A stretch of DNA of 64,000 nucleotides, from IMG/VR virus record IMGVR_UViG_3300042991_000725, positions 59,632 through 123,631 of that record; one strand, written 5' to 3'. The position numbers were made by a program, and so were the translations under genes. This document shows positions 829 to 50,753 of the stretch, piece after piece. The notes under the pieces were generated by a model, which saw only the letters and a list, made by a program, of their open reading frames with translations, ran no database searches and was not told where the DNA came from. Source of the stretch: a virus (lineage: Duplodnaviria > Heunggongvirae > Uroviricota > Caudoviricetes). Within the stretch, counting starts at the first letter, position 1; every line of letters begins with the position of its first letter.

Positions 829-1863
829 CTATTCATTCTCCAATAAATATTCCGGATTAATTACTTTAAAGGACATTCTGCTACCTAACACATAGCTGTA
901 TTTTTCTTCTACTGGCCTAACCACGATTCCTTCTTGCTTGCAATTCGATGGTTGATAAGTGTGTTTCTTGCAAATCTGCAGCAATTCTTCGACATTCGTC
1001 CAACTAAATGTTGCGCACCCCAGCACTGGCACACTCTGAAGTGGCCCGCCCTTCATTGTTTCGCTAAAAAATGCATAATAATTAAGGAACTTCTGCTTCG
1101 TGATATTAAAGATATTGAAGACAAACAACTCTCGTTCAGCCAGCCCCATTCTGTTCTTTTGAATACCGGGGCCTGCGATCTCGCCCTGAATTGCCCACTC
1201 GTCACCATTTTCTTCTTGCCATTGCTTCAAAATGTTTTCAATGCCGTACTTCCTAGCCATGTCAAAGTAAATAGACGGCTTGCCTTCTTTTTCCCTAAGA
1301 TGCATGTTGCGGCTACAGACATAGAATACTCCGTCTTTCAGGGCATAAGATGCCGAAGTGCCATCAATTTTCTGCGTAATATAGACCGATAATCCCTGCA
1401 TTTCTTTGAAAAGTTCTGGAAAACCATTAATTCTCAACTCATCTGTTTTGTGAATAAATGGAGTAAAGTTTCCAGCAATTTCGCCAGAAAAGAAAGCCGG
1501 AGCGGGCGGTTCATATTTCTTGATTCCAAGTCTATCGGTTAAGTCTTCTCCCTCTGTCAATTCGCTGATATTAATTCCAAAGGCAGTCGCCGTTTCAAGC
1601 GGCAAAACGAGACCTTGGGATATGCGCTTCTTGAGCCGGATTGTCTTTATGCGGATTAATACAGTATCCTCTTTGTTGTTAGACAAAAACCACGTTGGAA
1701 CTATGCTGTCAATTTCTATAAAAAGAACTAACTCGTTTTCTTTGAATAAATCTTTTTTTATGACAACGTTCCACATCTGAATATTTGCTTCTTGAATTTT
1801 ATCTGCATCGGCTATATTTCTTATATTGATTATCTTTTCTACCCTAGCCAACTTTCGTTCCAT
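829..1863 (-). CDS. ATP-dependent RNA ligase (Rnl2/Rnl5-like)
   Basis: 344 aa. Nucleotidyltransferase motif I QKIDGTSASY (KxDG lysine) in a T4 Rnl2-like context. ~140-aa N-terminal extension as in Rnl5/DraRnl-type ligases. Confidence 0.6.
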   Translation of the reverse strand: MERKLARVEKIINIRNIADADKIQEANIQMWNVVIKKDLFKENELVLFIEIDSIVPTWFLSNNKEDTVLIRIKTIRLKKRISQGLVLPLETATAFGINISELTEGEDLTDRLGIKKYEPPAPAFFSGEIAGNFTPFIHKTDELRINGFPELFKEMQGLSVYITQKIDGTSASYALKDGVFYVCSRNMHLREKEGKPSIYFDMARKYGIENILKQWQEENGDEWAIQGEIAGPGIQKNRMGLAERELFVFNIFNITKQKFLNYYAFFSETMKGGPLQSVPVLGCATFSWTNVEELLQICKKHTYQPSNCKQEGIVVRPVEEKYSYVLGSRMSFKVINPEYLLENE

Positions 1864-1864
1864 A

Positions 1865-2926
1865 TCAGTTTCCTTTCTTGTAAAATTTATTTTTCATTAA
1901 TTTTGTTTTAATCAACTCGCATATTTGTTTACCAGTTTTATTTTTAATCTCGTGTTCCCATATTTCTATAATTTTATACCCATTTTTACTGGCAAGTTTT
2001 CTCTTATATCTGTCTTTTTTCCACACATCTTTCGCTTTAAGATCGCCGCATATAATATCGTTAGCTTTATACTTTTCTTTGCATGCATGCCAATAGTCAC
2101 CTTGGACTTCTATAACAATCTTCTTTTGTAATAAGAAATCAAAATTAAATCTCCATAAAAACACATTATGGCAGTATTTGACACCTAAAATTTTCAAAGC
2201 TTTCTCAATTTTCCTCTCTGGTTTCGATATCCAGTTTCTAAATTTTTTAAAATGTCCCGCTCTGCGAGGTGCCTCTGTTCGTTTAATTTTTTCTTCATAT
2301 GATCGACTGGCCCATAATTTTTTAATAGTTTTTATCCTTTTCAATATAGCTACATTTCCAGCACCAAAATTTCTATGCCCATATTTTCTTAAGCATGTTT
2401 CCTCCATTCTATCTATGTCTTTTTTATACTTTGAAGTTTTGCGATATTTTTTACTTCCAATCAACATTCTTTTACGACAAACTTCTAAGTATTTATTGTA
2501 CGATCCATATTTTTTTGCTAAAGTTCTTTCCTTTTTCTTCTGAATAATTGGAGATGCTGACAAATTGGTAATATTCTTGCCGTATTTTTTACGAATGCCG
2601 GACAAGTATCTTTTTTTATATCTTGCTGTCTTTCTTTCTTCTTTTGATGTTCGTTTTATTTTCAATAAATTAAGTAGTTTTTTTGGACAAGCATATTTTT
2701 CCCTTATTTCATTAGTACATATTTTCTCGTTTTTATATTTTCTAATAATATTGTGCAATCTTTTTTTCCCAAAACACGTTTCCCATAAACACGACTCTTT
2801 ATCTAGATTAGTTTTAAATCTTTTGTATTCTGTGCGTGAAAAATGAATACTTAATTCTCTGATATGATTGAATTTTCTGTGACAAAAGGGGCAAATCATG
2901 CTATTCACCATAAAAGGCTCTCCCAT
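1865..2926 (-). CDS. zinc-finger + Vsr-like endonuclease domain protein (putative homing/free-standing endonuclease)
   Basis: N-terminal CPFCHRKFNHIRELSIH (C2H2-like), a long Lys-rich linker, and C-terminal IEVQGDYWH...DVWKKD...IIEIWEHE resembling the Vsr/DUF559 nuclease core. Confidence 0.45.
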   Translation of the reverse strand: MGEPFMVNSMICPFCHRKFNHIRELSIHFSRTEYKRFKTNLDKESCLWETCFGKKRLHNIIRKYKNEKICTNEIREKYACPKKLLNLLKIKRTSKEERKTARYKKRYLSGIRKKYGKNITNLSASPIIQKKKERTLAKKYGSYNKYLEVCRKRMLIGSKKYRKTSKYKKDIDRMEETCLRKYGHRNFGAGNVAILKRIKTIKKLWASRSYEEKIKRTEAPRRAGHFKKFRNWISKPERKIEKALKILGVKYCHNVFLWRFNFDFLLQKKIVIEVQGDYWHACKEKYKANDIICGDLKAKDVWKKDRYKRKLASKNGYKIIEIWEHEIKNKTGKQICELIKTKLMKNKFYKKGN

Positions 2927-3008
2927 GTAGCCGGACCGGACTAGGGATGGCCACAGAGGGGAGAGTTGAATTTATAGTGTAAATAGTCCGATCCATATTT
3001 ATATACAC

Positions 3009-3281
3009 CTAATCTGGGAATAATTGAGTGCCAGTCAGTCTGCCATTTTCCTCTAAACGTATTAAAACCGACTCAATATCCGTTGAAAAGCAGCCATACG
3101 GCCCGATTGTTTGTATTCCGAAAAACTTACTAAACATCTCGGTCCACTCTTTGCCCTTCTTTTTGAACAGAAGATCCAAGCTTTCGTTCGTCACACATCC
3201 TTCTTTAATTTCCAGCCCATATTTATGACAATACTTTAACTCATCGTTCTTGATTTCCTTTTTTATTTTCTTGGCCATCAT
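3009..3281 (-). CDS. hypothetical protein
   Basis: 90-aa ORF in the co-oriented minus block; no recognisable motif. Confidence 0.4.
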   Translation of the reverse strand: MMAKKIKKEIKNDELKYCHKYGLEIKEGCVTNESLDLLFKKKGKEWTEMFSKFFGIQTIGPYGCFSTDIESVLIRLEENGRLTGTQLFPD

Positions 3282-3287
3282 GCCCTC

Positions 3288-5311: not shown

Positions 5312-5561
5312 GGCTATTTATCCAAAAAGTAAAAAACAATCTTTGCTGTACAGTGTCCTATACAAACAACAAAATAAACATATATCATTCCCCAAAACAA
5401 ATCAAGCATATCTTCACAAAATGTTGCTTTCATAAAACCCTCCATCCGTTGTTTATGGTAGGCGGCCAACGAGTCGAACGTTGTGTACGAAATTATAAGT
5501 TTCGCCCTCAAAACCGTCGAGGACACCGCCTGTATTTAAATATTTATTCCTTGCAGACTTC

Positions 5562-8359: not shown

Positions 8360-8361
8360 GA

Positions 8362-12881: not shown

Positions 12882-12897
12882 ATTCCCTCCAGCGGAT

Positions 12898-14302: not shown

Positions 14303-14383
14303 TGCCGATGGCGGGAGTCGAACCCGCATGGGAAATCCCGGCGGCTTTTAAGGCCGCTGTGTCTGCCATTCCACCACATCGGC
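14303..14383 (-). tRNA. tRNA-Leu (anticodon UAA)
   Basis: Cloverleaf on minus strand: acceptor GCCGATG/CATCGGC+A, anticodon loop CU-UAA-AA, long variable arm (type II), T-arm GGGTTCGACTCCC. Confidence 0.75.
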
Positions 14384-19715: not shown

Positions 19716-19788
19716 TGACGGCGGAGGGAATTGAACCCTCGACCCCCGGATTAAAAATCCGATGTTCTGCCAACTGAACTACGCCGTC
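19716..19788 (-). tRNA. tRNA-Lys (anticodon UUU)
   Basis: Minus-strand cloverleaf: acceptor GACGGCG/CGCCGTC+A, anticodon loop UU-UUU-AA, T-arm GGGTTCAATTCCC. Confidence 0.75.
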
Positions 19789-20443: not shown

Positions 20444-20468
20444 CGGAATTCCCTTTCGATGTAAAAGA

Positions 20469-31510: not shown

Positions 31511-31604
31511 AATGGTTATATTGATGTCATGTATCGGGGTCGCGTCAGCTTTTATTTATTGTGCTATAAAGTCAAACAATAGCTCTAAGGAGAACAAAGA
31601 ATGA
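31494..31604 (+). CDS. small single-TM peptide (36 aa), tandem copy 2
   Basis: MIRVIEMVILMSCIGVASAFIYCAIKSNNSSKENKE; its stop overlaps the SPFH gene start (ATGA). Confidence 0.45.
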   Translation: MIRVIEMVILMSCIGVASAFIYCAIKSNNSSKENKE

Positions 31605-35514: not shown

Positions 35515-36189
35515 ATGAACACTGGAAAAGGCAAGTCTATAATAACGAATTTTGGATGTGATAAGTCGTGTCATTATTGTATTTGGAAATATTCACAACT
35601 GAGGAATTACAAAACTACAATAGACAATACAGACTGGGAAAAGCTATCGAAGTTCATAAAGGGCTCGGATAGCATAAGTATTTCTGGTGGCGGCGACCCT
35701 CTTTATAATATTGACGGAAATTGGGCATGGTTCAAGGAGTTCTTTACCAGGGCTAAATCCTATCATGTCAAACTTCACACCGCAGTTATTTTGCCACAAG
35801 ACAAAAGTTTTTATTATGGTAGCTTTAATAAGATTGCACTGCATCTGAATTATAAAGAATTCAAACACAATCTTGACAGGGTTTTTTCTCTACATGAGAA
35901 TATTAGGCTAGTTTTCGTATTGTCGGAGAACGATTTGTCCAAGAACAGGGTAAGTGAGATATGCGAAATATGTGCTGATAAGTCTGTTCAGTTAAGTTTT
36001 AGAGAATTGTTTATCCCTGATAAGACAAAGTCTAGATTGCAGAGTGTGCTTGAAATTAATACGAAGGAAATAGTTAAGAGCAAATACAGTTCTTTCGCCA
36101 AATTTGTCGAACAGGCCGACTATAATATTTATTATATGCCAGACAATTCTATAAGAACAAAATTTTTGGAGAATGCCCATGCAATTTAA
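35515..36189 (+). CDS. QueE-like radical SAM protein (7-carboxy-7-deazaguanine synthase family, B. subtilis type)
   Basis: 224 aa; FGCDKSCHYC (cf. QueE GCDYSCSWC) and ISISGGGDPL (cf. VTISGGNP SAM-binding loop). Confidence 0.5.
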   Translation: MNTGKGKSIITNFGCDKSCHYCIWKYSQLRNYKTTIDNTDWEKLSKFIKGSDSISISGGGDPLYNIDGNWAWFKEFFTRAKSYHVKLHTAVILPQDKSFYYGSFNKIALHLNYKEFKHNLDRVFSLHENIRLVFVLSENDLSKNRVSEICEICADKSVQLSFRELFIPDKTKSRLQSVLEINTKEIVKSKYSSFAKFVEQADYNIYYMPDNSIRTKFLENAHAI

Positions 36190-37165
36190 GAATGCTTTTT
36201 ATCTCCCAAGCGGTAGGGTATTTTTGCTTGATTGTGACGGATTTCCTGTTGAATGTACAGAAATGAGAGATGTTACTGTCGGTGGGAAGGACCATGAAGA
36301 AGTACGAACATCTAACGACCCGCATGTGATTTGGAATCACTTAAAGCCATATAATGAAAAATGGCTGCTTACAGTATCTACGCAGAAGGGCTGCCCACAT
36401 AAATGCAAGTTTTGTGATGTCGCAGGGCTTGGCTTTAGCGGCAATTTAACTGTTGAACAAATCTTGGAGCAAGTTTCTTTCATCCTGGATGCTTCTCCGT
36501 ATGTGCAAAATTGCTCTAAAGTCAAAATAGGATTTGCTAGAATGGGAGAGCCGTCACATAATTTGACAAATGTTCTTAATGCCATGAAGATGCTACCATC
36601 AATCTCTTCTAGCAAAAGTAGAGTTTTCACATGGCTGCCATGCTTTAATAGTATTCTGCCCAAGAAAACAATAGATGGACGGTCAGCATACGATGTGATA
36701 GAAAGAGTTTTAGCTATGAAGGATTGGTATAATGGATTCCTCCACTTCCAAATCTCGGCAAATTCTACAGACGAGAATATTAGGAAGCAGCTTTTCGGTG
36801 GTGCCGATGTCTTGGGCTTGGAAGAAATTGTCAAATATATCAATGGAAAGTCGATTACTAATAGGACAATTACGCTGAATTTTATAGTAATAGATGGAGT
36901 CCCTATTGATGTAAAATATCTAAAGAGTATTGGCGTTAATGGCAGCAAATTTAACATTAAGCTGATCCCATTAAACAATACGGAGCGCGGGATCATCAAT
37001 AACTTGAAGACATATGCCAATTATACCAATTATGATAAACTGATTGATTTGGGAGATGAAATACGGAAGGAAGGCATTCCTGTTGTCGTAGATGCTATAG
37101 CAAAATGTGAAGAGGCCGGGTTATGTTGCGGACAGTTGGCTCATATATATGCGAAAAATAATTAA
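36173..37165 (+). CDS. RlmN/Cfr-family radical SAM RNA methyltransferase
   Basis: STQKGCPHKCKFCDVAGLGFSGNLTVEQILEQV parallels RlmN [33 protein letters not shown]; C-terminal CCGQLA parallels the RlmN ACGQLAG (second catalytic Cys). Confidence 0.7.
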   Translation: MPMQFKNAFYLPSGRVFLLDCDGFPVECTEMRDVTVGGKDHEEVRTSNDPHVIWNHLKPYNEKWLLTVSTQKGCPHKCKFCDVAGLGFSGNLTVEQILEQVSFILDASPYVQNCSKVKIGFARMGEPSHNLTNVLNAMKMLPSISSSKSRVFTWLPCFNSILPKKTIDGRSAYDVIERVLAMKDWYNGFLHFQISANSTDENIRKQLFGGADVLGLEEIVKYINGKSITNRTITLNFIVIDGVPIDVKYLKSIGVNGSKFNIKLIPLNNTERGIINNLKTYANYTNYDKLIDLGDEIRKEGIPVVVDAIAKCEEAGLCCGQLAHIYAKNN

Positions 37166-37428: not shown

Positions 37429-37504
37429 TCTGGGGTAGCTCAGCTGGTAGAGCGACGGACTGTTAATCCGTTTGTCGCAGGTTCAAATCCTGCTCCCAGA
37501 GCCA
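37429..37504 (+). tRNA. tRNA-Asn (GUU)
   Basis: Acceptor TCTGGGG/TCCCAGA, anticodon loop CU-GUU-AA, T-arm GGTTCAAATCC, CCA encoded. Confidence 0.8.
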
Positions 37505-37511
37505 AAATTAT

Positions 37512-37583
37512 CAGGGTGTGGGCCAATGGCTGGCCACCAGTCTTGGGCACTGGGTCATGCAGGTTCGACTCCTGTCACCCTGA
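37512..37583 (+). tRNA. tRNA-Pro (UGG)
   Basis: Acceptor CAGGGTG/CACCCTG, anticodon stem CCAGT/ACTGG, loop CU-UGG-GC. Confidence 0.75.
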
Positions 37584-37595
37584 TTTAATATGTGC

Positions 37596-37666
37596 GTCCC
37601 TGTGATCTAATGGCAGGATACCAGATTTTCAGTCTGGGTGCAAGGGTTCGATCCCCTTCAGGGATA
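37596..37666 (+). tRNA. tRNA-Glu (UUC)
   Basis: Acceptor GTCCCTG/CAGGGAT, anticodon loop UU-UUC-AG; D-arm TCTAATGGCAGGA homologous to bacterial tRNA-Glu. Confidence 0.75.
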
Positions 37667-37684
37667 TTTGTTCTTTGAAAATGT

Positions 37685-37758
37685 AGCCCATTAACTCAAC
37701 TGGCTAGAGTGCCACTTTTACACGGTGGAAGTTGAAGGCTCGAATCCTTCATGGGCTA
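37685..37758 (+). tRNA. tRNA-Val (UAC)
   Basis: Acceptor AGCCCAT/ATGGGCT, anticodon loop UU-UAC-AC, T-arm GAAGGCTCGAATCCTTC. Confidence 0.7.
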
Positions 37759-37764
37759 TTTAAT

Positions 37765-37838
37765 GCTCGGTTAGTGTAGTGACAACACGCGACACTGTCG
37801 ATGTCGAGTCAGGAGTTTAATTCTCCTACCGAGTGCCA
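37765..37838 (+). tRNA. tRNA-Asp (GUC)
   Basis: Anticodon stem CGACA/TGTCG, loop CU-GUC-GA; CCA encoded. Confidence 0.8.
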
Positions 37839-37865
37839 TTTTTTTCGGGCTATGTGCCCACCAAT

Positions 37866-37936
37866 GGGGACATAACATAATGGGAATGTGTTACCCTTGC
37901 AAGGTAAAAATGTGGTTTCGACTACCACTGTCTCCA
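37866..37936 (+). tRNA. tRNA-Ala (UGC)
   Basis: Acceptor GGGGACA/TGTCTCC with G3:U70 identity pair; anticodon loop CU-UGC-AA. Confidence 0.8.
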
Positions 37937-37985
37937 TTATCTTTTATTTTTTGCTCTTTGACAATATTGCTGTAAAACGTAACAC

Positions 37986-38073
37986 AGAAGCGTAGCCTAA
38001 CGGTAAGGCAGCACTTTGCTAAAGTGCCATGCGTCCACAAGGCGTATTGAGAGTTCAATTCTCTCCGCTTCTG
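37986..38073 (+). tRNA. tRNA-Ser (GCU)
   Basis: Type II; acceptor AGAAGCG/CGCTTCT+G, anticodon loop UU-GCU-AA, long variable arm. Confidence 0.8.
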
Positions 38074-38095
38074 CTTTATAAAACTAGGAGCCCAT

Positions 38096-38815
38096 ATGCA
38101 AACTAATACAATGAAGTGCGAATATGGATGTGGGAATAACGCTTTATACAAGTTGCCTAAAGGCAGATGGTGTTGTTCGACGAGCTTTAATTCGTGTCCT
38201 GCTTCCAGAGAAAAAAACAGAATAGCCGTTCTCGATAGCTATAAAAATGGAAGATCTGGTTATTGGAAAGGCAAAAGTTATCCAAGTTTTGGCAAAAAAT
38301 ATGAAGAAATGTACGGCAAGGACAGGTCTGAAATAATCAAAGATAAAATATCAAAGTCTTTGATTGGCGTTTCTCCGGGCAGAGCAAGTACGGACGAGAA
38401 AGAACAAATAAGAAGATCTCGCATTTCTGCAAAAATGATTCTTAATAAATGTGGCGGGTATAGGTACGGTAGCGGCAGAGGTAAAAAGGGAACATATAAG
38501 GGGTATTGGTGTGATAGTAGTTGGGAGCTAGCCTATGTTATTTATTGTTTAGATCATAGTATCAAAATAAGTAGAAATTGGACAAGGTTTCCTTATGTTT
38601 ATAAAGGCAAGCAGCGTTTTTGGATTCCAGACTTTGTTAAAGAAGATACCTATATCGAGATTAAAGGATATGAGACAAAAAAGGATGAAGCAAAATTCAA
38701 TTATTTTAAAAAGAGCTTGATTATTCTTAAAGAAAAAGAAATGCGTTTTATACTAAGTTATGTTACTGATAAATACGGAAAGGACTATATTTCAATGTAC
38801 GAAAGGAAGAGTTGA
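38096..38815 (+). CDS. zinc-finger + PD-(D/E)xK nuclease domain protein (putative homing endonuclease inside the tRNA array)
   Basis: 239 aa; AGGAG SD; N-terminal CEYGCG...CCSTSFNSC zinc cluster; C-terminal WCDSSWE...PDFVKEDTYIEIKG (D...E-x-K); stop overlaps the 5' end of tRNA-Ser(UGA) by 11 nt. Confidence 0.5.
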   Translation: MQTNTMKCEYGCGNNALYKLPKGRWCCSTSFNSCPASREKNRIAVLDSYKNGRSGYWKGKSYPSFGKKYEEMYGKDRSEIIKDKISKSLIGVSPGRASTDEKEQIRRSRISAKMILNKCGGYRYGSGRGKKGTYKGYWCDSSWELAYVIYCLDHSIKISRNWTRFPYVYKGKQRFWIPDFVKEDTYIEIKGYETKKDEAKFNYFKKSLIILKEKEMRFILSYVTDKYGKDYISMYERKS

Positions 38816-38896
38816 CCACAGTGGGTGCGTGGCCTTGTCTTGAAAACAAGTGCCCATGAAAGTGGGCTGAGAGTTCAAATCTCTCCTCTTCCTCCA
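38805..38896 (+). tRNA. tRNA-Ser (UGA)
   Basis: Type II; acceptor GGAAGAG/CTCTTCC, anticodon stem CTTGT/ACAAG, loop CU-UGA-AA, T-arm GAGAGTTCAAATCTCTC; end taken with encoded CCA. Confidence 0.7.
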
Positions 38897-38898
38897 CT

Positions 38899-38968
38899 GC
38901 CCCGTGGTGTAATTGGAAACGCGCTGGCCTTTGGAGCCGGAGTCTCCCGTTCAAATCGGGACGGGGCA
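38899..38968 (+). tRNA. tRNA-Gln (UUG)
   Basis: Acceptor GCCCCGT/ACGGGGC+A, anticodon loop CU-UUG-GA. Confidence 0.7.
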
Positions 38969-38977
38969 ATTTTATAC

Positions 38978-39049
38978 TGCCCAGTGGTGTAATAGAAACA
39001 TATCGGACTCTGACTCCGAAGACTTCAGGTGCAAGTCCTGACTGGGCAA
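38978..39049 (+). tRNA. tRNA-Gln (CUG)
   Basis: Acceptor TGCCCAG/CTGGGCA+A, anticodon stem TCGGA/TCCGA, loop CU-CUG-AC. Confidence 0.7.
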
Positions 39050-39058
39050 TTTTTATTC

Positions 39059-39142
39059 GCAAGTGTAGCCCGTTATGGAGGCGGATGAGCCTGTAGAGCT
39101 CATATCTTCGGATCATAGAAGGTTCGATTCCTTCCACTTGCA
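39059..39142 (+). tRNA. tRNA-Tyr (GUA)
   Basis: Type II; acceptor GCAAGTG/CACTTGC+A, anticodon stem TGAGC/GCTCA, loop CU-GUA-GA. Confidence 0.8.
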
Positions 39143-39153
39143 TTTTATATTGT

Positions 39154-39226
39154 CGCAGGGTCGCCAAATGGTAAGGCTCCAGACTCATAATCTGGCAATT
39201 TGCTGGTTCGATTCCGGCCCCTGCTA
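39154..39226 (+). tRNA. tRNA-Met or Ile2 (CAU)
   Basis: Anticodon stem CCAGA/TCTGG, loop CU-CAU-AA. Elongator-type (no 3 G-C pairs in anticodon stem); a C1:U72 mismatch is read at the acceptor end, so termini are approximate. Confidence 0.65.
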
Positions 39227-39237
39227 TTTATTTTTAT

Positions 39238-39310
39238 GGTGGCTATAGTGTAGAGGACTGCACGTCTGACTGTGGCTCAGGAAGTCTGGGATCGTTACCC
39301 AGTAGTCACC
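39238..39310 (+). tRNA. tRNA-His (GUG)
   Basis: Encoded extra G(-1) opposite discriminator C73 (His hallmark); acceptor GTGGCTA/TAGTCAC, anticodon loop CU-GUG-GC. Confidence 0.8.
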
Positions 39311-39321
39311 CCATTTTTCTT

Positions 39322-39394
39322 GCGAGTGTAGCTGAATAAGACTAGCACCGGATTTTTAATCCGGGATATGTGGGTGCGAATCCCATCACTCGCA
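39322..39394 (+). tRNA. tRNA-Lys (UUU)
   Basis: Acceptor GCGAGTG/CACTCGC+A, anticodon stem CCGGA/TCCGG, loop UU-UUU-AA. Confidence 0.8.
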
Positions 39395-39399
39395 CTTTT

Positions 39400-39472
39400 G
39401 CGTCTGTAGCTCAATTGGCAGAGCATTTGGTTCTTACCCAAGGGGTTGGAGGTTCAAGTCCTCCCAGACGCA
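39400..39472 (+). tRNA. tRNA-Lys (CUU)
   Basis: Acceptor GCGTCTG/CAGACGC+A, anticodon loop UU-CUU-AC. Confidence 0.7.
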
Positions 39473-39480
39473 TTTTATTT

Positions 39481-39553
39481 GCTGGTGTAGCTTAATGGTT
39501 AAAGCGTCAGCCTTATAAGCTGAAAATCGGTGGTCCAATTCCACCCACCAGTA
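39481..39553 (+). tRNA. tRNA-Ile (UAU)
   Basis: Acceptor GCTGGTG/CACCAGT+A, anticodon stem TCAGC/GCTGA, loop CU-UAU-AA (AUA decoder). Confidence 0.65.
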
Positions 39554-39560
39554 CCATTCT

Positions 39561-39636
39561 GCGCTCATGGTGTAATGGATAACATTTCTGACTACGAATC
39601 AGAAGAGTGCAGGTTCGAGTCCTGCTGGGCGTACCA
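39561..39636 (+). tRNA. tRNA-Arg (ACG)
   Basis: Anticodon stem TCTGA/TCAGA, loop CU-ACG-AA; CCA encoded. Confidence 0.75.
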
Positions 39637-39637
39637 T

Positions 39638-39709
39638 GTGCCTGTGGTGTAATGGATAACATGTCACGGTCCTAACGTGTCGATTTGGGTTCAATTCCCA
39701 ACGGGCATA
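39638..39709 (+). tRNA. tRNA-Arg (CCU)
   Basis: Anticodon stem CACG/CGTG, loop GU-CCU-AA; T-arm TTGGGTTCAATTCCCAA. Confidence 0.65.
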
Positions 39710-39735
39710 TTTACTTTGAAAGGCGGTGATAACCA

Positions 39736-40326
39736 ATGGTTCTAAATGACGCAACTCTTGTTTTGAATAAAGGATGGGTCCCAATCGGCTTCGCTTCAGT
39801 GCGCAGGGCTATGGAACTGTTGGTTACTGATAGGGCACAGGCGATTCTCCCAGACGACTATTCTGTCCATAATTTTGATTCTTGGGCAGATTTAAGGCTG
39901 TTAGACGATGAGATACGAATCCGTACTGTAAGTTTGGAAATAAAAGTTCCTGAGATCATCAGGCTAAATACATATACCGGAGTTCCGCAACACAAACTCA
40001 AGCTTTCTAGGCGCAATCTTTTCCGCAGGGATAATTGTACGTGTCAGTATTGCGGCAAACAACTCAAGAGCGAGGATGCAACTATTGACCATGTCATTCC
40101 GAGAGCATTGGGTGGTAAAACGACTTGGCTCAATTGTGTTATCGCCTGTCTCAAGTGCAATAGCAAAAAAGACGACAAGACGCTGGCTCAGTGTGGGATG
40201 AGATTGATAAAAATTCCTGTTGCACCTAATGGAATGGCAAGTATACGGATTCCTGTATTTAAGAAGAGGATCAGTTGGGATAAGTTTATTTCAGAAGCGT
40301 ATTGGAATATTGAACTTCTTGAATAG
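39736..40326 (+). CDS. HNH endonuclease (putative homing endonuclease inside the tRNA array)
   Basis: 196 aa; CQYCGK...DHVIPRALGG...N...CLKCN HNH motif with flanking zinc-ligand Cys pairs. Confidence 0.75.
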   Translation: MVLNDATLVLNKGWVPIGFASVRRAMELLVTDRAQAILPDDYSVHNFDSWADLRLLDDEIRIRTVSLEIKVPEIIRLNTYTGVPQHKLKLSRRNLFRRDNCTCQYCGKQLKSEDATIDHVIPRALGGKTTWLNCVIACLKCNSKKDDKTLAQCGMRLIKIPVAPNGMASIRIPVFKKRISWDKFISEAYWNIELLE

Positions 40327-40358
40327 GAGTTAAGCAGACAAACGTTTCGAATAAGCAC

Positions 40359-40431
40359 ATGCCCATAGTCTAATTGGATAGGCGCCAGACTTCTAATCTG
40401 GTTTATGAGGGTCCGAGTCCCTCTGGGCATA
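40359..40431 (+). tRNA. tRNA-Arg (UCU)
   Basis: Acceptor ATGCCCA/TGGGCAT+A, anticodon stem CCAGA/TCTGG, loop CU-UCU-AA. Confidence 0.75.
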
Positions 40432-40433
40432 TT

Positions 40434-40507
40434 GCGGGTGTGGCTCAGTGGTAGAGCGCGACGTTGCCATCGTCGATGCGAGGGTCCGATTCCCTTCACT
40501 CGCTCCA
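40434..40507 (+). tRNA. tRNA-Gly (GCC)
   Basis: Acceptor GCGGGTG/CACTCGC, anticodon stem CGACG/CGTCG, loop UU-GCC-AU; CCA encoded. Confidence 0.8.
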
Positions 40508-40508
40508 A

Positions 40509-40582
40509 GCGCCTGTGGTGAAATGGCATCACGAGAGTCTTCCAAACTCTAGTCCCGGGTTCAATCCCCGGTAGGCGCTCCA
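40509..40582 (+). tRNA. tRNA-Gly (UCC)
   Basis: Anticodon stem AGAGT/ACTCT, loop CU-UCC-AA; CCA encoded. Confidence 0.8.
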
Positions 40583-40594
40583 TTTTTTTTATAC

Positions 40595-40665
40595 GCTTGG
40601 ATAGCTCAACGGTAAGGCATCTGGTTGAAGCCCAGAAAATGCAAGTTCAATTCTTGCTCCAAGCA
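40595..40665 (+). tRNA. tRNA-Phe (GAA)
   Basis: Acceptor GCTTGGA/TCCAAGC+A, anticodon stem TCTGG/CCAGA, loop UU-GAA-GC. Confidence 0.8.
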
Positions 40666-40670
40666 TTTAT

Positions 40671-40744
40671 ACGGGTGTAGTGTAGTGAAAACATTTCAGA
40701 CTCCAAATCTGAAGACAGGGGTTCGATTCCTCTCGCCCGTGCCA
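40671..40744 (+). tRNA. tRNA-Trp (CCA)
   Basis: Anticodon stem TCAGA/TCTGA, loop CU-CCA-AA; CCA end encoded. Confidence 0.75.
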
Positions 40745-40847
40745 TGCTATAAATCGTATGTGGGGAGAATAAAAATGATCGTTAGAGCTGGAATGAATTA
40801 TGCCGATGCTGGAAGAATTGGATATTTGAAAGGGAAAAGTTATTAAT

Positions 40848-40919
40848 GCCCGATAAGCGTAGATGCCGACGCAGGACCCTTGTAAGGTTCAGAGGCTGGT
40901 TGAAGTCCAGCATCGGGCT
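40848..40919 (+). tRNA. tRNA-Thr (UGU)
   Basis: Acceptor GCCCGAT/ATCGGGC, anticodon stem GGACC/GGTTC, loop CU-UGU-AA, T-arm GCTGGTTGAAGTCCAGC. Confidence 0.7.
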
Positions 40920-40930
40920 TTTATTTATAC

Positions 40931-41001
40931 GCTGTTATAGCTTAGTGGCAAAGCAGGGCTTTCGTAAAGCTCAGACGTTGGTTCGATTCCAACTAGCAGC
41001 T
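40931..41001 (+). tRNA. tRNA-Thr (CGU)
   Basis: Acceptor GCTGTTA/TAGCAGC, anticodon loop UU-CGU-AA. Confidence 0.7.
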
Positions 41002-41006
41002 TTTGT

Positions 41007-41079
41007 GCCGCCATAGCTCAGTTAGAAGAGCGCATTCTTGGTAAGAATGAGGTCGTGAGTGCAAATCTCGCTGGTGGCT
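41007..41079 (+). tRNA. tRNA-Thr (GGU)
   Basis: Acceptor GCCGCCA/TGGTGGC, anticodon stem CATTC/GAATG, loop UU-GGU-AA. Confidence 0.75.
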
Positions 41080-41084
41080 TTTAT

Positions 41085-41156
41085 GCACGAGTAGCCAAGT
41101 GGCTAAGGCGGCAAGCTGCAACCTTGCTAATATGGGTTCGATTCCCATCTCGTGCT
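41085..41156 (+). tRNA. tRNA-Cys (GCA)
   Basis: Acceptor GCACGAG/CTCGTGC, anticodon stem GCAAG/CTTGC, loop CU-GCA-AC. Confidence 0.8.
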
Positions 41157-41163
41157 TATTTGT

Positions 41164-41249
41164 GGCCAAGTGGCGGAATGGCAGACGCGAGAGTTTCAAA
41201 AGCTCTTGTCCATACACGGACACTGTGGGTTCAAGTCCCACCTTGGCTA
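41164..41249 (+). tRNA. tRNA-Leu (CAA)
   Basis: Type II with long variable arm; anticodon stem AGAGT/GCTCT, loop UU-CAA-AA; T-arm GTGGGTTCAAGTCCCAC. Confidence 0.7.
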
Positions 41250-41255
41250 TTTTAT

Positions 41256-41329
41256 GGCGCCATAGCCCAACGGCAGGAGGCATCTCGCTTAGAACGAGAG
41301 CAGTGCTGGTTCGAGTCCGGCTGGCGTTA
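41256..41329 (+). tRNA. tRNA with anticodon UAG (Leu-type anticodon, atypical short variable arm)
   Basis: Anticodon stem TCTCG/CGAGA, loop CU-UAG-AA; variable region only 5 nt (GCAGT); T-arm GCTGGTTCGAGTCCGGC; acceptor has two G:U pairs. Confidence 0.55.
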
Positions 41330-41342
41330 TTTTTTCAAATCT

Positions 41343-41414
41343 GCGGATATAGCTCAGCAGTAGAGTTCTTGTCTGATAAGCAAGAGGTCGAAGGTGCGAT
41401 TCCTTCTATCCGCA
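41343..41414 (+). tRNA. tRNA-Ile (GAU)
   Basis: Acceptor GCGGATA/TATCCGC+A, anticodon stem CTTGT/GCAAG, loop CU-GAU-AA. Confidence 0.8.
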
Positions 41415-41495
41415 TTTTATATTTTGTAATAGTGGCAGCGATTGCCTTTAACTATATCAATGCTACTTGTGGCACCAGTGAATTGCCAACTGCCA

Positions 41496-47319: not shown

Positions 47320-47489
47320 AAGAAAGGCTGGTGATCAGGTCGCTATGTCGTATGATGGTGTCCCGACGGTATTGAGCGGGCTTCCGCCTGTCGGTGAGTC
47401 TTGACTTATAGCCAAGAGCGCCTCATACAAACGTCTTAGTGACGAACACCCCTCATTGCGCCAGCCGCTATTATATACACTCAAATTCA

Positions 47490-48288: not shown

Positions 48289-48491
48289 TTTTTGCCCCCG
48301 TCTGTATGCTTTAATACAAGTGCATTATAAATAGAGTCGTTATTAATGTCTGAACTATAGTTCAAATATTCCTTCTTCGTCCGCTTATAGAATAGCTTTA
48401 TATTATCCCCATATATTTTTCTAATATCGCTGGAAACGCTCCATAACTTTTTAACAGCTTTTCTAATTATCTTTGCTTTTTTTTCGTTCAT
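48285..48491 (-). CDS. hypothetical protein
   Basis: 68-aa basic ORF. Confidence 0.35.
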   Translation of the reverse strand: MNEKKAKIIRKAVKKLWSVSSDIRKIYGDNIKLFYKRTKKEYLNYSSDINNDSIYNALVLKHTDGGKK

Positions 48492-48993
48492 TTAGTTCTC
48501 CAAAGTAGGCATTGCTAAGATTTAAGACTTTGTTGTTGTGTTTTTTGTTCTTTGGATATAACACAACACGGCACCCTTCTTTGTTGCTGGGATCAATGAA
48601 ATAAGTAGCCATATCCTCTATTACTTCCTCTGGCACCTTCTCGGAAATGTCGCACCTTTTGTTATTTTCAAAGCATTTTTTTATAGTTGTTGTGACCCAC
48701 ACTATGGTTGTTTTCGCCCCATAATCCTGTCCTATATTTATCCATTTGGCCCTTATTCTTCTGCTTATGTTTGTTTCGTCTATGATGACAGAAGATCCCT
48801 GCATCAACAAGAGTCTAGCTAACGACTCAGCTACTGCCCATACAAACATTTCGGCATTCTCGTGATATTGATGGCCAAAGATTGTTCTGCGAATTACATC
48901 TTTAGAAACAACAATTTCGTTCTTTTTTTTATTTTTTTTAATCCATGTAGATTTGCCAGACCTTGGGAGCCCACACATTATTATTAAGTTCAT
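48463..48993 (-). CDS. polynucleotide 5'-kinase (T4 Pnk kinase-domain-like)
   Basis: GLPRSGKSTW P-loop, VSKDVIRRTI, VIIDETNISRRIRAKW, NNKRCDISEKVPEEVIEDM closely parallel the T4 Pnk kinase domain (GCPGSGKSTW...INRDDYRQSI...VIISDTNLNPERRLAW...RNSKRGTKAVPIDVLRSM). Confidence 0.7.
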   Translation of the reverse strand: MNLIIMCGLPRSGKSTWIKKNKKKNEIVVSKDVIRRTIFGHQYHENAEMFVWAVAESLARLLLMQGSSVIIDETNISRRIRAKWINIGQDYGAKTTIVWVTTTIKKCFENNKRCDISEKVPEEVIEDMATYFIDPSNKEGCRVVLYPKNKKHNNKVLNLSNAYFGELNERKKSKDN

Positions 48994-49394
48994 TGGATGC
49001 TACCCACACAGTCTTTGCATAGGGTTGTGTACCATCCATTTTGACAAATAAGCTCTCCGTCTTTGCCACAAAATTCACATATTCTTGCACTATCTTTTTC
49101 AGCCTCTCTTATAAGATTTTCCATTTCATCTGTGCTTGTGGACATATAGAAGCGCAATGTACCAAATTTACTTTTAACTTGAGAAGCTATTGGATAAAAA
49201 TCTTCGTTGCAATCTTCTGCTTTGTATCCAATAATAAGTTTTTCTAATTTTGACGACAAATTATAAATAAGATCATACCATCCAGATCCGCATTCGAATC
49301 TTAAACAATTTAGATTTTGCTCGATTGTCATATTTTTTCCCATATACAGATTTGGGAAATTATTGATTAATTTTTTTTCTAATTTTGAATACAT
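48990..49394 (-). CDS. hypothetical protein
   Basis: 134-aa ORF; C-terminal CEFCGK...CKDC. Confidence 0.4.
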   Translation of the reverse strand: MYSKLEKKLINNFPNLYMGKNMTIEQNLNCLRFECGSGWYDLIYNLSSKLEKLIIGYKAEDCNEDFYPIASQVKSKFGTLRFYMSTSTDEMENLIREAEKDSARICEFCGKDGELICQNGWYTTLCKDCVGSIQ

Positions 49395-49450
49395 TGTGCG
49401 TCTTGCAACAAATGTGTTTTATTTTATTGATAAATTGGCCATATTGGAAG

Positions 49451-49708
49451 TCAGACTTTATCGTTTGTCTCTAAAAAATTTATCATTTCTTCTTGAGTAT
49501 TATTATTCAATATTATTTCTTGGAAACAGCCATAGGTGCATTTGTAGCCAAACACATATCTTATTGCAATCCATAATCTTTGCAAGAGCCGAAGATGCGT
49601 TAAATGAATCTCTACATAAACTTCTGGCTCACCATCTATTTTGCGCAGGATTAACTGATGTTCTGGAGAAGAGCAGGCGCAAAAGAAAATAATGTCTTTG
49701 TTTTTCAT
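49451..49708 (-). CDS. hypothetical protein
   Basis: 85-aa ORF. Confidence 0.35.
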   Translation of the reverse strand: MKNKDIIFFCACSSPEHQLILRKIDGEPEVYVEIHLTHLRLLQRLWIAIRYVFGYKCTYGCFQEIILNNNTQEEMINFLETNDKV

Positions 49709-49986
49709 TGTTTGGCTATCTTATATCCGATTTTATTTTTTATCAATTCTTCGTGTCTTTTTGCTATGCTTTCAATTTTTCTATGTAAAATACGTGCGAG
49801 CCTATCTTTTGCCGTTATTATATAATAATTTAAAATAATGGCGTCTTCTTCCTCGGTAAACAACTTACCACAACCACAGTTTTTCTTTTTGGCGGTTTCC
49901 AATAACTCTAACGTCTGCCTGTCTATTTTTACAACTTTATAATTTTTGCTTCCTGCGCCTGAACCCTTGCAAGTTTCGGCTTCCAT
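49705..49986 (-). CDS. hypothetical protein
   Basis: 93-aa ORF. Confidence 0.35.
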   Translation of the reverse strand: MEAETCKGSGAGSKNYKVVKIDRQTLELLETAKKKNCGCGKLFTEEEDAIILNYYIITAKDRLARILHRKIESIAKRHEELIKNKIGYKIAKQ

Positions 49987-50753
49987 GTGTACTCTCCCTT
50001 ATCAGAAATGGTAAAAATAACAAAACCGATATCTATTGTTGTCGAACAGCGTCTAGCACCATACTTGGACCCCATTGCTTGCATCCCGGGGAGTGTCATT
50101 GCCAACCAGTCAGAGTCTCCACAATATGCATACTTGTGTACGTGTGCGCGTACAATAATATCTGCTTTAGGTTGTTCTCCGTGTATATTCCAAAGCACGT
50201 TTTGCAGACGTTCTTTTGCAACAGGAGTCATTCTGCCATAGGGGACAGAAGATCCACCAATATGATGCTTTAGATCAAATAATACTCCATTTATTTCTAC
50301 AAACTCCTGACTACCTATTGATTTTGCTCCAACCTTAGCCGCTATTGTGTCCTCTAAATCTTCATAAGTCCCTGAGTGGTAAGGAGTCCCATACACAATG
50401 CTTATGCTTTTCGCATTGATTGTTTTGATAACCTCTATAGCCATATCGCATTGTTCATCACGATCAACGGTAATTAATTCCGTACTTCCAGACTTCTCTC
50501 CTCTGCCGTCTATGCAATCTCCGCCAATAAGGGCAAAGTCTAGTCCTCCGTAATGCCGCTTAATGTCTTTAATTTCGTTTTTGAACCAATTCCAGATTTC
50601 TTTTTGTATCTTGGCAAACTTGTCACGCTTATGTTCAGAAATCGTTCCTGTGCCGCTTTCTATCACTCGATAATGATAATTTGAAGGCGTAAGTCCACTA
50701 CGGTGTCCGCAATGAAAATCTGCTATAGCTATTCCAACTTTTTGTTTTCCCAA
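49929..50753 (-). CDS. calcineurin-like metallophosphoesterase
   Basis: IADFHCG (DxH), GGDCIDGRG (GDxxDRG), RAHVHKY (GHxH). Confidence 0.7.
   Translation of the reverse strand: MGKQKVGIAIADFHCGHRSGLTPSNYHYRVIESGTGTISEHKRDKFAKIQKEIWNWFKNEIKDIKRHYGGLDFALIGGDCIDGRGEKSGSTELITVDRDEQCDMAIEVIKTINAKSISIVYGTPYHSGTYEDLEDTIAAKVGAKSIGSQEFVEINGVLFDLKHHIGGSSVPYGRMTPVAKERLQNVLWNIHGEQPKADIIVRAHVHKYAYCGDSDWLAMTLPGMQAMGSKYGARRCSTTIDIGFVIFTISDKGEYTWKPKLARVQAQEAKIIKL

What the first reader, a model, noticed from the sequence alone, without database searches (positions are those of the whole stretch)
829..50753. Dispersed RNA end-healing and sealing toolkit next to a complete tRNA complement
The window encodes four enzymes of RNA repair: RtcB (33022..34230), an Rnl-type ATP-dependent RNA ligase (829..1863), a T4-Pnk-like 5'-kinase (48463..48993) and a calcineurin-type metallophosphoesterase (49929..50753, candidate 2',3'-phosphate/cyclic-phosphate end-healing enzyme). 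Together with 34 tRNAs covering all 20 amino acids, this matches the established phage counter-defence against host anticodon nucleases (PrrC/RloC/colicin-like). Having both ligation chemistries plus separate kinase and phosphatase genes is an unusually complete and redundant set.
Basis: partly seen in the sequence, partly recalled or inferred. Interest (0 to 1): 0.7.

Follow-up and report, generated by a model that had tools for sequence, protein, structure and literature searches.

The report
Phage RNA-repair genes beside tRNA array
A large uncultivated phage carries about 32 tRNA genes plus three genuine RNA-repair enzymes (RtcB, an Rnl5-type RNA ligase and a polynucleotide-kinase-like kinase), a combination already described for big phages; the fourth proposed member, a metallophosphoesterase, looks like a DNA-nuclease-type enzyme unrelated to RNA repair.

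Summary
All four ORFs exist at the stated coordinates.

- **RtcB (33022-34230):** it has every catalytic residue.
- **ATP-dependent RNA ligase (829-1863):** it belongs to the DraRnl/NgrRnl (Rnl5) nick-sealing family.
- **Kinase (48463-48993):** it is a stand-alone 176-aa P-loop kinase. Its closest sequence and fold relatives are all polynucleotide or tRNA kinases (CthPnkp, PSTK, T4 Pnk). None is an NMP or dNMP kinase.
- **Fourth gene (49929-50753):** it has a calcineurin-like metallophosphoesterase (MPE) fold, but it sits nearest the PolD-DP1/Mre11 nuclease clade. It belongs to a family present on at least 201 viral contigs. There it pairs with an overlapping HTH-like ORF and is never near RtcB, ligase or kinase genes, with only one tRNA in 80 loci. 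Its role as an RNA 3'-end healer is unsupported.

The genes lie in three separate transcription blocks. Only RtcB shares a block with the tRNA array.

Jumbo-phage surveys already describe tRNAs combined with RtcB, ATP-dependent ligases, kinases and phosphoesterases. This is therefore a new member of a known kind, not an unusually complete set.

Counter-defence against host tRNA nucleases is the most likely role, but that is inferred.

The parts
33022..34230 (+). RtcB RNA ligase (joins 3'-P or 2',3'-cyclic-P ends to 5'-OH ends); 402 aa
   Evidence: PF01139 E 1.9e-111. phrog_1075 'tRNA splicing ligase' E 4.6e-119. All active-site residues align with P. horikoshii RtcB. It lies 3.2 kb upstream of the tRNA array on the same strand.
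37429..41415 (+). tRNA array of 30 genes. It is interrupted by a 239-aa ORF (38096-38815) and an HNH endonuclease (39736-40326).
   Evidence: ARAGORN finds 29 in this range and Rfam tRNA scores run 40-74 bits. One extra gene, tRNA-Thr(UGU) at 40848-40919, scores 45.5 bits and folds as a cloverleaf. HNH domain: Pfam.
14303..14383 (-). Isolated tRNA-Leu(UAA)
   Evidence: ARAGORN; Rfam 60.4 bits.
19716..19788 (-). Isolated tRNA-Lys(UUU), a second copy
   Evidence: ARAGORN; Rfam 73.9 bits.
829..1863 (-). ATP-dependent RNA ligase of the DraRnl/NgrRnl (Rnl5) family: N-terminal OB domain plus C-terminal nucleotidyltransferase domain
   Evidence: PF21189 plus PF09414. TIGR02306 scores above its equivalog cut-off. 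Full-length match to NgrRnl at E ~5e-36 with the KxDG lysine conserved. phrog_968 E 8.4e-62.
48463..48993 (-). Stand-alone P-loop kinase of the polynucleotide-kinase/PSTK/KTI12 clade (176 aa); candidate RNA 5'-OH kinase
49929..50753 (-). Calcineurin-fold MPE of an unannotated viral family. It is listed because the finding names it, but it is probably NOT part of the RNA-repair set.
49705..49986 (-). 93-aa HTH-like ORF overlapping the MPE 3' end by 58 nt; conserved partner of the MPE family
   Evidence: 72 of 77 related viral loci have an equivalent out-of-frame ORF, and the overlap is exactly 58 nt in 39 of them. The same arrangement is seen.
36173..37165 (+). RlmN/Cfr-like radical-SAM RNA methyltransferase, directly upstream of the tRNA array (possible tRNA/rRNA modifier; its association with the repair set is inferred)
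   Evidence: TIGR00048 RlmN E 5.7e-17 (below the equivalog cut-off) and Cfr models. Radical_SAM Pfam. C-terminal CCGQL motif read from the translation.

Best explanation
The window comes from a large, uncultivated tailed phage. The contig is at least 154 kb and there is no close cultured relative. The phage carries its own near-complete tRNA set and three RNA-repair enzymes.

Proposed roles:
- RtcB can directly rejoin RNA broken by metal-independent RNases, which leave 2',3'-cyclic-P or 3'-P ends and 5'-OH ends. It sits in the same rightward gene block as the tRNA array.
- The stand-alone Pnk-clade kinase would phosphorylate 5'-OH ends.
- The Rnl5-type ligase would seal 3'-OH/5'-P nicks in base-paired RNA, such as tRNA stems or nicked tRNAs held together by their structure.
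- Replacement tRNAs and repair would together keep translation running when host defences or toxins cut tRNAs.

What is shown: the enzyme family assignments, the intact catalytic motifs and the gene layout. What is inferred: the RNA substrates, cooperation between kinase and ligase, and the counter-defence purpose.

A 3'-end-healing enzyme for the ATP-dependent branch was not identified in the window. The nearby MPE belongs to a widespread viral DP1/Mre11-like family. It most likely acts on DNA, or has some other role, together with its overlapping HTH partner.
For: Family assignments and motifs:
- RtcB.
- Rnl5 ligase.
- Kinase.

tRNA set: 32 credible tRNAs covering 20 amino acids.

Recurrence of the associations:
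- Two of the 12 IMG/VR loci matched by this RtcB (50-60% identity over the full-length matches) have tRNA arrays within 10 kb.
- In Streptomyces phage Wofford, the gene matched by this kinase is annotated as a 295-aa polynucleotide kinase. It lies about 650 nt from an RNA ligase gene and 1.3 kb from a tRNA array.
- The kinase also matches the N-terminal part of a 757-aa protein of a Mammaliicoccus phage that is annotated polynucleotide kinase (RNA ligase in a sister record), and the N-terminus of phrog_8238 'RNA ligase'.

Published framework:
- Jumbo phages combine tRNAs, RtcB, ATP-dependent ligases and Pnk (PMC7824862).
- Phage tRNAs counter tRNA-cleaving defences (PMC10264068, PMC11555353, PMC11464382; listed).
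- Rnl5 biochemistry and its occurrence in phages (PMC4408790).

Viral origin: relatives of RtcB and of the MPE lie on viral contigs beside tail, lysis and portal genes.
Against: - The genes are dispersed over 50 kb in three differently oriented blocks, so co-regulation is not shown.
- None of the 12 RtcB-related loci carries the kinase or the Rnl5 ligase within 10 kb.
- Rnl5 enzymes are poor on single-stranded RNA. They are widespread in phages that show no annotated kinase or phosphatase nearby, such as PAK_P1.
- Two metagenomic homologues of the kinase sit among nucleotide-metabolism genes: Pribosyltran, dUTPase, dCMP deaminase, MazG, NUDIX.
- No archease, RtcA, 2H, HAD, HD or cRec 3'-end healer was detected in the window.
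- The host and any host tRNA nuclease are unknown.
Confidence: 0.6

Rival explanations
1. The four genes are functionally unrelated passengers of a large phage genome. RtcB, the ligase and the kinase each serve separate purposes, and the tRNAs serve codon-usage or translation autonomy rather than counter-defence. There is no toolkit.
For: The genes lie in three separate blocks, up to 31 kb apart. None of the 12 RtcB-related loci has the kinase or ligase nearby. Rnl5 occurs alone in many phages. The MPE is clearly unlinked.
Against: RtcB lies next to tRNA arrays here and in two related viral loci. A kinase-ligase-tRNA neighbourhood occurs in phage Wofford. The literature reports that Pnk-type enzymes and ATP-dependent ligases occur together in jumbo phages.
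Confidence: 0.2
2. The kinase is not an RNA 5'-kinase. It would act either in nucleotide or modified-nucleotide metabolism, or as a PSTK/KTI12-like enzyme on aminoacyl-tRNA or tRNA.
For: The best sequence matches are PSTK (1.6e-22; TIGR03574). The lid region resembles PSTK. Homologues in loci L004 and L006 sit beside Pribosyltran, dUTPase, dCMP deaminase, MazG and dGTP diphosphohydrolase genes.
Confidence: 0.2
3. One reading: the MPE is the missing 2',3'-cyclic-phosphate/3'-phosphate end healer. Working with the kinase 1 kb away, it would form a split analogue of bacterial Pnkp (kinase plus calcineurin-type phosphatase).
For: The MPE fold is confident, and metal-binding motifs I, II, IV and V are invariant. 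The gene lies 0.9 kb from the kinase on the same strand. The kinase's best structural match is the kinase domain of CthPnkp, and I recall that this enzyme uses an MPE phosphatase. Iyer et al. note calcineurin-like phosphatases in a few jumbo phages. I recall that some small MPEs (MJ0936, YfcE) are generic phosphodiesterases.
Confidence: 0.1

Closest known systems
RNA-repair and tRNA provisioning systems of jumbo phages (Iyer, Anantharaman, Krishnan, Burroughs & Aravind 2021, PMC7824862)
   Same: Large phage genome; many tRNAs; RtcB plus an ATP-dependent RNA ligase plus a polynucleotide-kinase-type P-loop kinase; genes scattered rather than in one operon.
   Different: The ATP-dependent ligase here is Rnl5 (DraRnl type), not the Rnl1 or Rnl2 emphasised in that survey. 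The kinase is a bare kinase domain without the usual fused HAD phosphatase. No 2H, cRec, HAD or RlaP partner was detected in the window.
Phage T4 Pnkp + Rnl1 pathway against the PrrC anticodon nuclease
   Different: There is no fused HAD 3'-phosphatase. The ligase is a nick-sealing Rnl5, not Rnl1. This phage additionally has RtcB, which makes end healing unnecessary. A PrrC-like host nuclease is not known here.
Caulobacter phage phiCbK and relatives
   Same: RtcB at 39.6% identity. An SPFH/Band-7 gene sits immediately upstream of RtcB in both genomes. DraRnl homologues are reported in Caulobacter phages (PMC4408790).
   Different: No DNA-level similarity. I did not locate the phiCbK Rnl5 gene or any Pnk-clade kinase in the 41 kb examined.
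Deinococcus radiodurans DraRnl / Naegleria gruberi NgrRnl (Rnl5 family)
   Same: Same two-domain architecture and motif I lysine; full-length alignment; score above the NCBIfam equivalog cut-off.
   Different: About 30-37% identity only. Activity is untested. The biological substrate of the family is unknown even for the type enzymes.
Clostridium thermocellum Pnkp (bacterial Pnkp/Hen1 RNA repair)
   Different: From memory, CthPnkp is a single kinase-MPE phosphatase-ligase polypeptide working with Hen1. Here the kinase stands alone, the nearby MPE belongs to a different (DP1/Mre11-like) clade, and no Hen1 was found.
Archaeal PolD small subunit DP1 (Mre11-like 3'-5' exonuclease)
   Different: The match covers the phosphoesterase core only. 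There is no DP1 N-terminal or OB region and no PolD large subunit. Motif III differs. Identity is 13-17%.

Membership tests
RtcB (PF01139) | Full-length match above the Pfam gathering score | tested here: met
   373.8 bits against a cut-off of 27, covering profile positions 1-426.
RtcB (PF01139) | Metal-binding Asp/Cys/His residues and the His that forms the covalent GMP adduct | tested here: met
   The residue identities are recalled. The corresponding conserved blocks all align to PDB 1uc2 with the residues retained: GVDVGCG, GGGNHF, MIHSGSR, VHNY, SHGAGR.
RtcB (PF01139) | GTP/Mn-dependent ligation of 3'-P or 2',3'-cP ends to 5'-OH ends | not testable with these tools
   Needs a biochemical assay.
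Rnl5 (DraRnl/NgrRnl) RNA ligase | N-terminal OB domain followed by C-terminal NTase domain (reverse of the order in DNA ligases) | tested here: met
   PF21189 covers residues 5-89 and PF09414 covers 160-335. The alignment to NgrRnl is collinear over residues 3-326.
Rnl5 (DraRnl/NgrRnl) RNA ligase | Motif I KxDG lysine nucleophile (NgrRnl Lys170) | tested here: met
   ITQKIDGTS aligns to VTVKLDGSS. The role of Lys170 is from PMC4408790.
Rnl5 (DraRnl/NgrRnl) RNA ligase | Score above the curated equivalog cut-off of TIGR02306 | tested here: met
   160.9 bits against 151.15. The Rnl2 model scores only 19.5 bits against 197.
Rnl5 (DraRnl/NgrRnl) RNA ligase | Seals 3'-OH/5'-P nicks in duplexes when the 3'-OH strand is RNA | not testable with these tools
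   Needs a biochemical assay.
T4-Pnk-like polynucleotide 5'-kinase clade | P-loop GxxxxGK[ST], plus a catalytic Asp and an Arg three residues later (D-x-x-R) | tested here: met
   GLPRSGKST and SKDVIR. G8, K14, S15, D32 and R35 are invariant in 29 homologues. They align to CthPnkp SSDFCR and PSTK GSDLIR.
T4-Pnk-like polynucleotide 5'-kinase clade | Closest relatives are polynucleotide kinases rather than nucleotide kinases | tested here: met
   [not shown]
T4-Pnk-like polynucleotide 5'-kinase clade | Fused 3'-phosphatase domain (bifunctional Pnkp, as in T4, mycobacteriophage and mammalian enzymes) | tested here: not met
   The protein is 176 aa and is a kinase domain only. It matches only the first half (positions 2-149 of 295) of phrog_505, and homologues are 137-260 aa.
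T4-Pnk-like polynucleotide 5'-kinase clade | Score above the curated cut-off of a named Pnkp/PSTK model | tested here: not met
   TIGR03574 56 bits against 290; TIGR04075 41 against 750; TIGR01663 27 against 503. Membership is therefore at clade level only.
Calcineurin-like metallophosphoesterase superfamily | Beta-sandwich MPE fold | tested here: met
   [not shown]
Calcineurin-like metallophosphoesterase superfamily | Metal-binding motifs DxH, GDxxD, GNH[D/E], H, GHxH | tested here: inconclusive
   D12-x-H14, GD72xxD and H204-x-H206 are invariant and match motifs I, II and V; invariant H163 probably corresponds to motif IV. Motif III is G122-T-x-Y-H126, with no Asn.
Calcineurin-like metallophosphoesterase superfamily | Pfam PF00149 match | tested here: not met
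   No hit for this sequence even at E 10. Only some homologues carry a precomputed PF00149 assignment.
Pnkp-type MPE 3'-phosphatase (lambda-phosphatase-like; CthPnkp) | Closest structural and sequence affinity to the lambda-phosphatase/Pnkp phosphatase clade, and genomic linkage to an RNA ligase or kinase | tested here: not met
   [not shown]
Phage counter-defence against anticodon nucleases (T4 paradigm) | A host-encoded tRNA nuclease whose damage the phage enzymes reverse | not testable with these tools
   The host is unknown. The phage has no close cultured relative.

The most novel reading that the evidence does not exclude
The stand-alone Pnk-clade kinase and the neighbouring DP1/Mre11-like MPE could together form a split end-healing pair that feeds the Rnl5 ligase. 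That would be an RNA 3'-end healer recruited from a nuclease-type MPE clade. The clade has no Pfam or PHROG model and is present on hundreds of viral contigs. If true, this widespread viral MPE plus HTH module would be an RNA-end-processing system rather than a DNA enzyme.
Probability: 0.08. Interest if true: 0.5.

Novelty: new member of a known kind. Interest (0 to 1): 0.3.

Why it matters
The window adds one more uncultivated large phage to the known pattern of carrying both spare tRNAs and the tools to mend broken ones. It shows that the DraRnl/Rnl5 ligase type and a bare kinase domain can fill the ATP-dependent branch of that pattern.

There are two practical gains. First, a correction: the MPE should not be annotated as an RNA-repair phosphatase. 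Second, a lead: the MPE represents an unannotated, widespread viral family resembling PolD DP1, with a strictly conserved overlapping partner gene. That family deserves its own study.

Tried and rejected
- Megablast of the RtcB gene against 50,697 phage records found nothing. The phage has no close cultured relative, and the best protein identity is 41%.
- Pfam, PHROGs, NCBIfam and PDB sequence and profile searches with the MPE gave no usable hit. Only structure prediction resolved it.
- I looked for an archease or other RtcB cofactor in the flanking ORFs 32554-32997 and 34234-34473. There was no family hit and no homologue in the 12 RtcB-related loci, so the idea was dropped.
- The ORF upstream of the ligase (1865-2926) was considered as a repair partner. 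It carries a homing-endonuclease-like or Vsr-like C-terminal domain, so it is probably a mobile endonuclease.
- The Metallophos protein near a kinase homologue in locus L004 was tested as a recurrence of the kinase-MPE pair. It is unrelated to the window MPE, and the 293-aa neighbour is unrelated to the ligase.
- A scan of IMG/VR with the kinase found nothing. An exact-sequence look-up of the MPE protein was not on record.
- The ARAGORN tRNA-Ile(UAU) at 5456-5531 was rejected.
- The tRNA-Ser(UGA) at 38805-38896 scores 42 bits on the tRNA-Sec model, below its gathering score. ARAGORN gives its anticodon as UGA, whereas tRNA-Sec carries UCA (recalled). I therefore did not pursue a PSTK/selenocysteine link.
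- PADLOC gave nothing for the four genes.
- Bordetella phage PHB04, the best RtcB match, was inspected as a possible precedent carrying the full set. Its first 50 kb shows RtcB but no Rnl5 or kinase homologue.

Full report
**Observation**

ARAGORN finds 32 tRNA genes and Rfam finds 30 at gathering score. A more permissive Rfam scan of the array adds a tRNA at 40848-40919 (45.5 bits). It folds as a cloverleaf, and its anticodon loop CUUGUAA gives Thr(UGU). The ARAGORN-only tRNA-Ile(UAU) at 5456-5531 has no Rfam match even at E<=1, so I discount it.

That leaves 32 credible tRNAs: 30 in one array at 37429-41415 (+), plus Leu(UAA) at 14303-14383 and a second Lys(UUU) at 19716-19788. All 20 amino acids are represented.

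**RtcB (33022-34230, +)**

- It matches PF01139 over the full profile at E 1.9e-111 and phrog_1075 'tRNA splicing ligase'.
- Aligned to P. horikoshii RtcB, the conserved blocks that I recall carrying the metal ligands and the guanylylated histidine are all retained: GVDVGCG, GGGNHF, MIHSGSR, VHNY, SHGAGR.
- It is 3.2 kb upstream of the first tRNA of the array, on the same strand and in the same rightward gene block (30.5-41.5 kb).
- That block also holds an SPFH/Band-7 gene, a DNA methylase and two radical-SAM genes.

**Ligase (829-1863, -)**

- It has an N-terminal OB domain (PF21189) and a C-terminal RNA_ligase nucleotidyltransferase (NTase) domain (PF09414).
- It scores above the curated equivalog cut-off of TIGR02306, the Deinococcus DRB0094/DraRnl model: 160.9 against 151.15 bits.
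- It aligns end to end with Naegleria gruberi NgrRnl at E ~5e-36, including the motif I lysine.
- It is therefore an Rnl5-family enzyme.
- Published biochemistry for this family shows sealing of 3'-OH/5'-PO4 nicks in duplexes whose 3'-OH strand is RNA, with feeble activity on single-stranded RNA. The same paper notes homologues in Aeromonas, Caulobacter, Mycobacterium and Sinorhizobium phages (PMC4408790).
- In the phage database, 323 records carry a relative, mostly Pseudomonas pakpunaviruses and Aeromonas phages. In the two contexts I inspected there was no annotated kinase next to it.
- In this phage, a gene with a homing-endonuclease-like C-terminus precedes it. Just beyond the left end of the window, a radical-SAM gene follows it.

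**Kinase (48463-48993, -)**

- It is a 176-aa stand-alone P-loop protein matching AAA_33 (E 6e-24) and KTI12.
- Against solved structures, the single sequence hits PSTK, the kinase domain of C. thermocellum Pnkp, T4 Pnk, Capnocytophaga Pnkp1 and mammalian PNKP.
- A profile of 29 homologues sharpens this:

| Match | E-value |
|---|---|
| PSTK | 1.6e-22 |
| CthPnkp kinase | 4.7e-18 |
| Pnkp1 | 1.9e-16 |
| T4 Pnk | 8.6e-16 |
| Mammalian PNKP | 1e-10 |
| Next enzyme class (PFK-2) | 1.9e-5 |

- The P-loop, Asp32 and Arg35 (the D-x-x-R element of Pnk enzymes) and Asp72 are invariant in the family.
- Membership holds at clade level only. No curated Pnkp or PSTK model is passed, and the protein lacks the fused 3'-phosphatase that defines bifunctional Pnkp enzymes.

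Comparative context for the kinase is mixed.
- In Streptomyces phage Wofford, the matching gene is annotated as a 295-aa polynucleotide kinase. It lies close to an RNA ligase gene and a tRNA array.
- In a Mammaliicoccus phage, the match covers the N-terminal part of a 757-aa protein annotated polynucleotide kinase (RNA ligase in a sister record).
- Two metagenomic homologues sit among nucleotide-metabolism genes.

**Metallophosphoesterase (MPE; 49929-50753, -)**

No profile library recognises it, and neither does a PDB sequence or profile search. It nevertheless has 355 homologues, and a few of them carry PF00149.

In the alignment, D12-x-H14, GD72xxD, H163 and H204-x-H206 are invariant. Motif III reads G-T-x-Y-H rather than GNH[D/E].

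The family occurs on at least 201 IMG/VR contigs.
- In the 80 best loci (1.13 Mb with flanks) there is no homologue of the window's RtcB, ligase or kinase and only one tRNA.
- These are mostly contigs or genomes under 70 kb. The gene sits after lysis or tail genes, or at the end of a replication module.
- In 72 of 77 evaluable loci, an out-of-frame 83-130-aa HTH-like ORF overlaps its 3' end. The overlap is exactly 58 nt in 39 of them, and the window shows the same 58-nt overlap (49705-49986).
- In L010, the closest relative, the MPE, the HTH ORF and a homologue of the window's 134-aa protein (48990-49394) recur as a module without any kinase.

So the calcineurin-type fold is confirmed. The proposed role in 2',3'-phosphate end healing has no support, and the proximity to the kinase looks incidental.

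**How the pieces fit together**

The window has three transcription blocks: leftward at 1-30 kb (ligase), rightward at 30.5-41.5 kb (RtcB and tRNAs), and leftward at 41.5-50.9 kb (kinase and MPE). The set is therefore not an operon.

The association with the best comparative support is RtcB with tRNA arrays. Of the 12 IMG/VR loci matched by this RtcB (50-60% identity over the full-length matches), two carry arrays of 8-11 tRNAs within 10 kb.

The most likely mechanism is the established one. Metal-independent RNases leave 2',3'-cyclic-P and 5'-OH ends. RtcB reseals these directly. The kinase and the Rnl5 ligase provide a second, ATP-dependent route for nicks that remain base-paired. The phage tRNAs replace what cannot be repaired. 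The 3'-end healer needed for the ATP-dependent route was not found in the window. It may lie in the other ~90 kb of the 154-kb contig, or the route may act only on 3'-OH breaks.

**Comparison with what is known**

- Iyer et al. 2021 (PMC7824862) describe this arrangement for jumbo phages. They report tRNAs supplemented by RtcB and/or ATP-grasp ligases in any combination, giving two Burkholderia phages (BcepSaruman and BcepSauron) as examples with all three ligase types. These come with polynucleotide kinases and HAD, 2H or cRec phosphoesterases, and in a small number of phages calcineurin-like ones.
- Recent experimental work shows that phage tRNAs neutralise tRNA-cleaving defences (PMC10264068, PMC11555353, PMC11464382).
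- The finding is therefore a new member of a known kind.
- Its particular features are the Rnl5 ligase type and the unfused kinase. These are modest variations.

**Provenance**

There is no DNA-level match to any deposited phage. The same genome appears in two Logan contigs from run SRR35210686 and in a 154-kb JGI contig. Viral origin is supported by the relatives of RtcB and the MPE on viral contigs, by HNH and homing-endonuclease genes inside and beside the tRNA array, by three DNA methylases, and by SSB and a class II ribonucleotide reductase.

**Verdict**

Interest is low to moderate.

Noticed in passing
[not shown]
   Followed up: partly
window 31601-32416 (+) and 33022-34230 (+); L109 18811-21203; L096 1807-4990: An SPFH/Band-7 gene lies just upstream of RtcB. 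Caulobacter phage phiCbK has the same arrangement (gp238 band-7, gp240 RtcB; the band-7 proteins match at E 1.9e-13). One IMG/VR RtcB relative has a band-7 homologue 1.3 kb downstream. SPFH genes are common in phages generally (583 records), so the link may be coincidental.
   Followed up: partly
window 35515-37165 (+): Two radical-SAM-type genes sit directly upstream of the tRNA array. The second (36173-37165) matches RlmN/Cfr RNA methyltransferase models (E 5.7e-17, below the equivalog cut-off) and ends in the CCGQL motif. It may be a phage-encoded tRNA/rRNA adenine methyltransferase.
   Followed up: partly
window 40848-40919 (+): tRNA-Thr(UGU), missed by ARAGORN and by the first Rfam pass. 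It forms a good cloverleaf but the T-loop is unusual (GUUGAAGUC).
   Followed up: yes
window 5456-5531 (-): ARAGORN calls a tRNA-Ile(UAU) here, overlapping ORF 5314-5526. Rfam finds nothing even at E<=1, so this is probably a false positive.
   Followed up: yes
window 38096-38815 (+) and 39736-40326 (+): Two protein genes interrupt the tRNA array: a 239-aa ORF with no family match and an HNH endonuclease (PF14279/PF01844). Both look like mobile insertions.
   Followed up: no
L096 937-2835; L099 8987-11113: In two IMG/VR relatives the RtcB reading frame is split into two matching pieces separated by about 0.7-0.8 kb. This suggests an intein, an intron or an inserted endonuclease gene.
   Followed up: no
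window 55976-63569 (+), continuing in L106 to about 21 kb: A long sugar-biosynthesis cluster: glycosyltransferases, UDP-GlcNAc 2-epimerase, a cytidylyltransferase, NAD epimerases, a DegT aminotransferase and, beyond the window, NeuB, PIG-L and methyltransferase genes. It resembles a nonulosonic-acid pathway and is unusually large for a phage.
   Followed up: partly
window 53547-55985 (+) and 53022-53537 (+): A ribonucleotide reductase with a C-terminal TSCPD domain (which I take to be class II) and a bacterial-type SSB.
   Followed up: no
window 34601-35422 (+), 41731-42717 (-), 42714-43676 (-): Three DNA methyltransferases: two of the N6/N4 type and one C5-cytosine.
   Followed up: no
window 11982-14130 (-) and 9086-10069 (-): Two paralogous Cys-rich proteins with Amidoligase_2 domains lie next to each other, and a DUF932 protein is nearby. 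Their function is unknown.
   Followed up: no
window 20051-23014 and 25011-26030 (-): Tandem families of paralogous small ORFs: three copies beginning ...KITKITAEMLKAGK... and two copies sharing NLKNKAGEICTLAQWCGE. They lie in a stretch of raised GC (0.42-0.44 against 0.36).
   Followed up: no
window 46075-48053 (-): Between the kinase and the methylases lie a B12-binding-type radical-SAM protein (weak PADLOC pVip hits, E 2.5e-6) and a staphylococcal-nuclease homologue (PADLOC 'SNc+LTD', E 3.1e-26).
   Followed up: no
window 3288-3914 (-) and 43893-44354 (-): Two proteins share the N-terminal sequence MKIR(T/A)GFVANSSS(S/A)SFIL. They are paralogues of unknown function in different gene blocks.
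   Followed up: no
L107 3190-4257 (left of window position 1): A 355-aa radical-SAM gene follows the ligase gene with a 1-nt gap. It is the fourth radical-SAM-type gene in this part of the genome.
   Followed up: no
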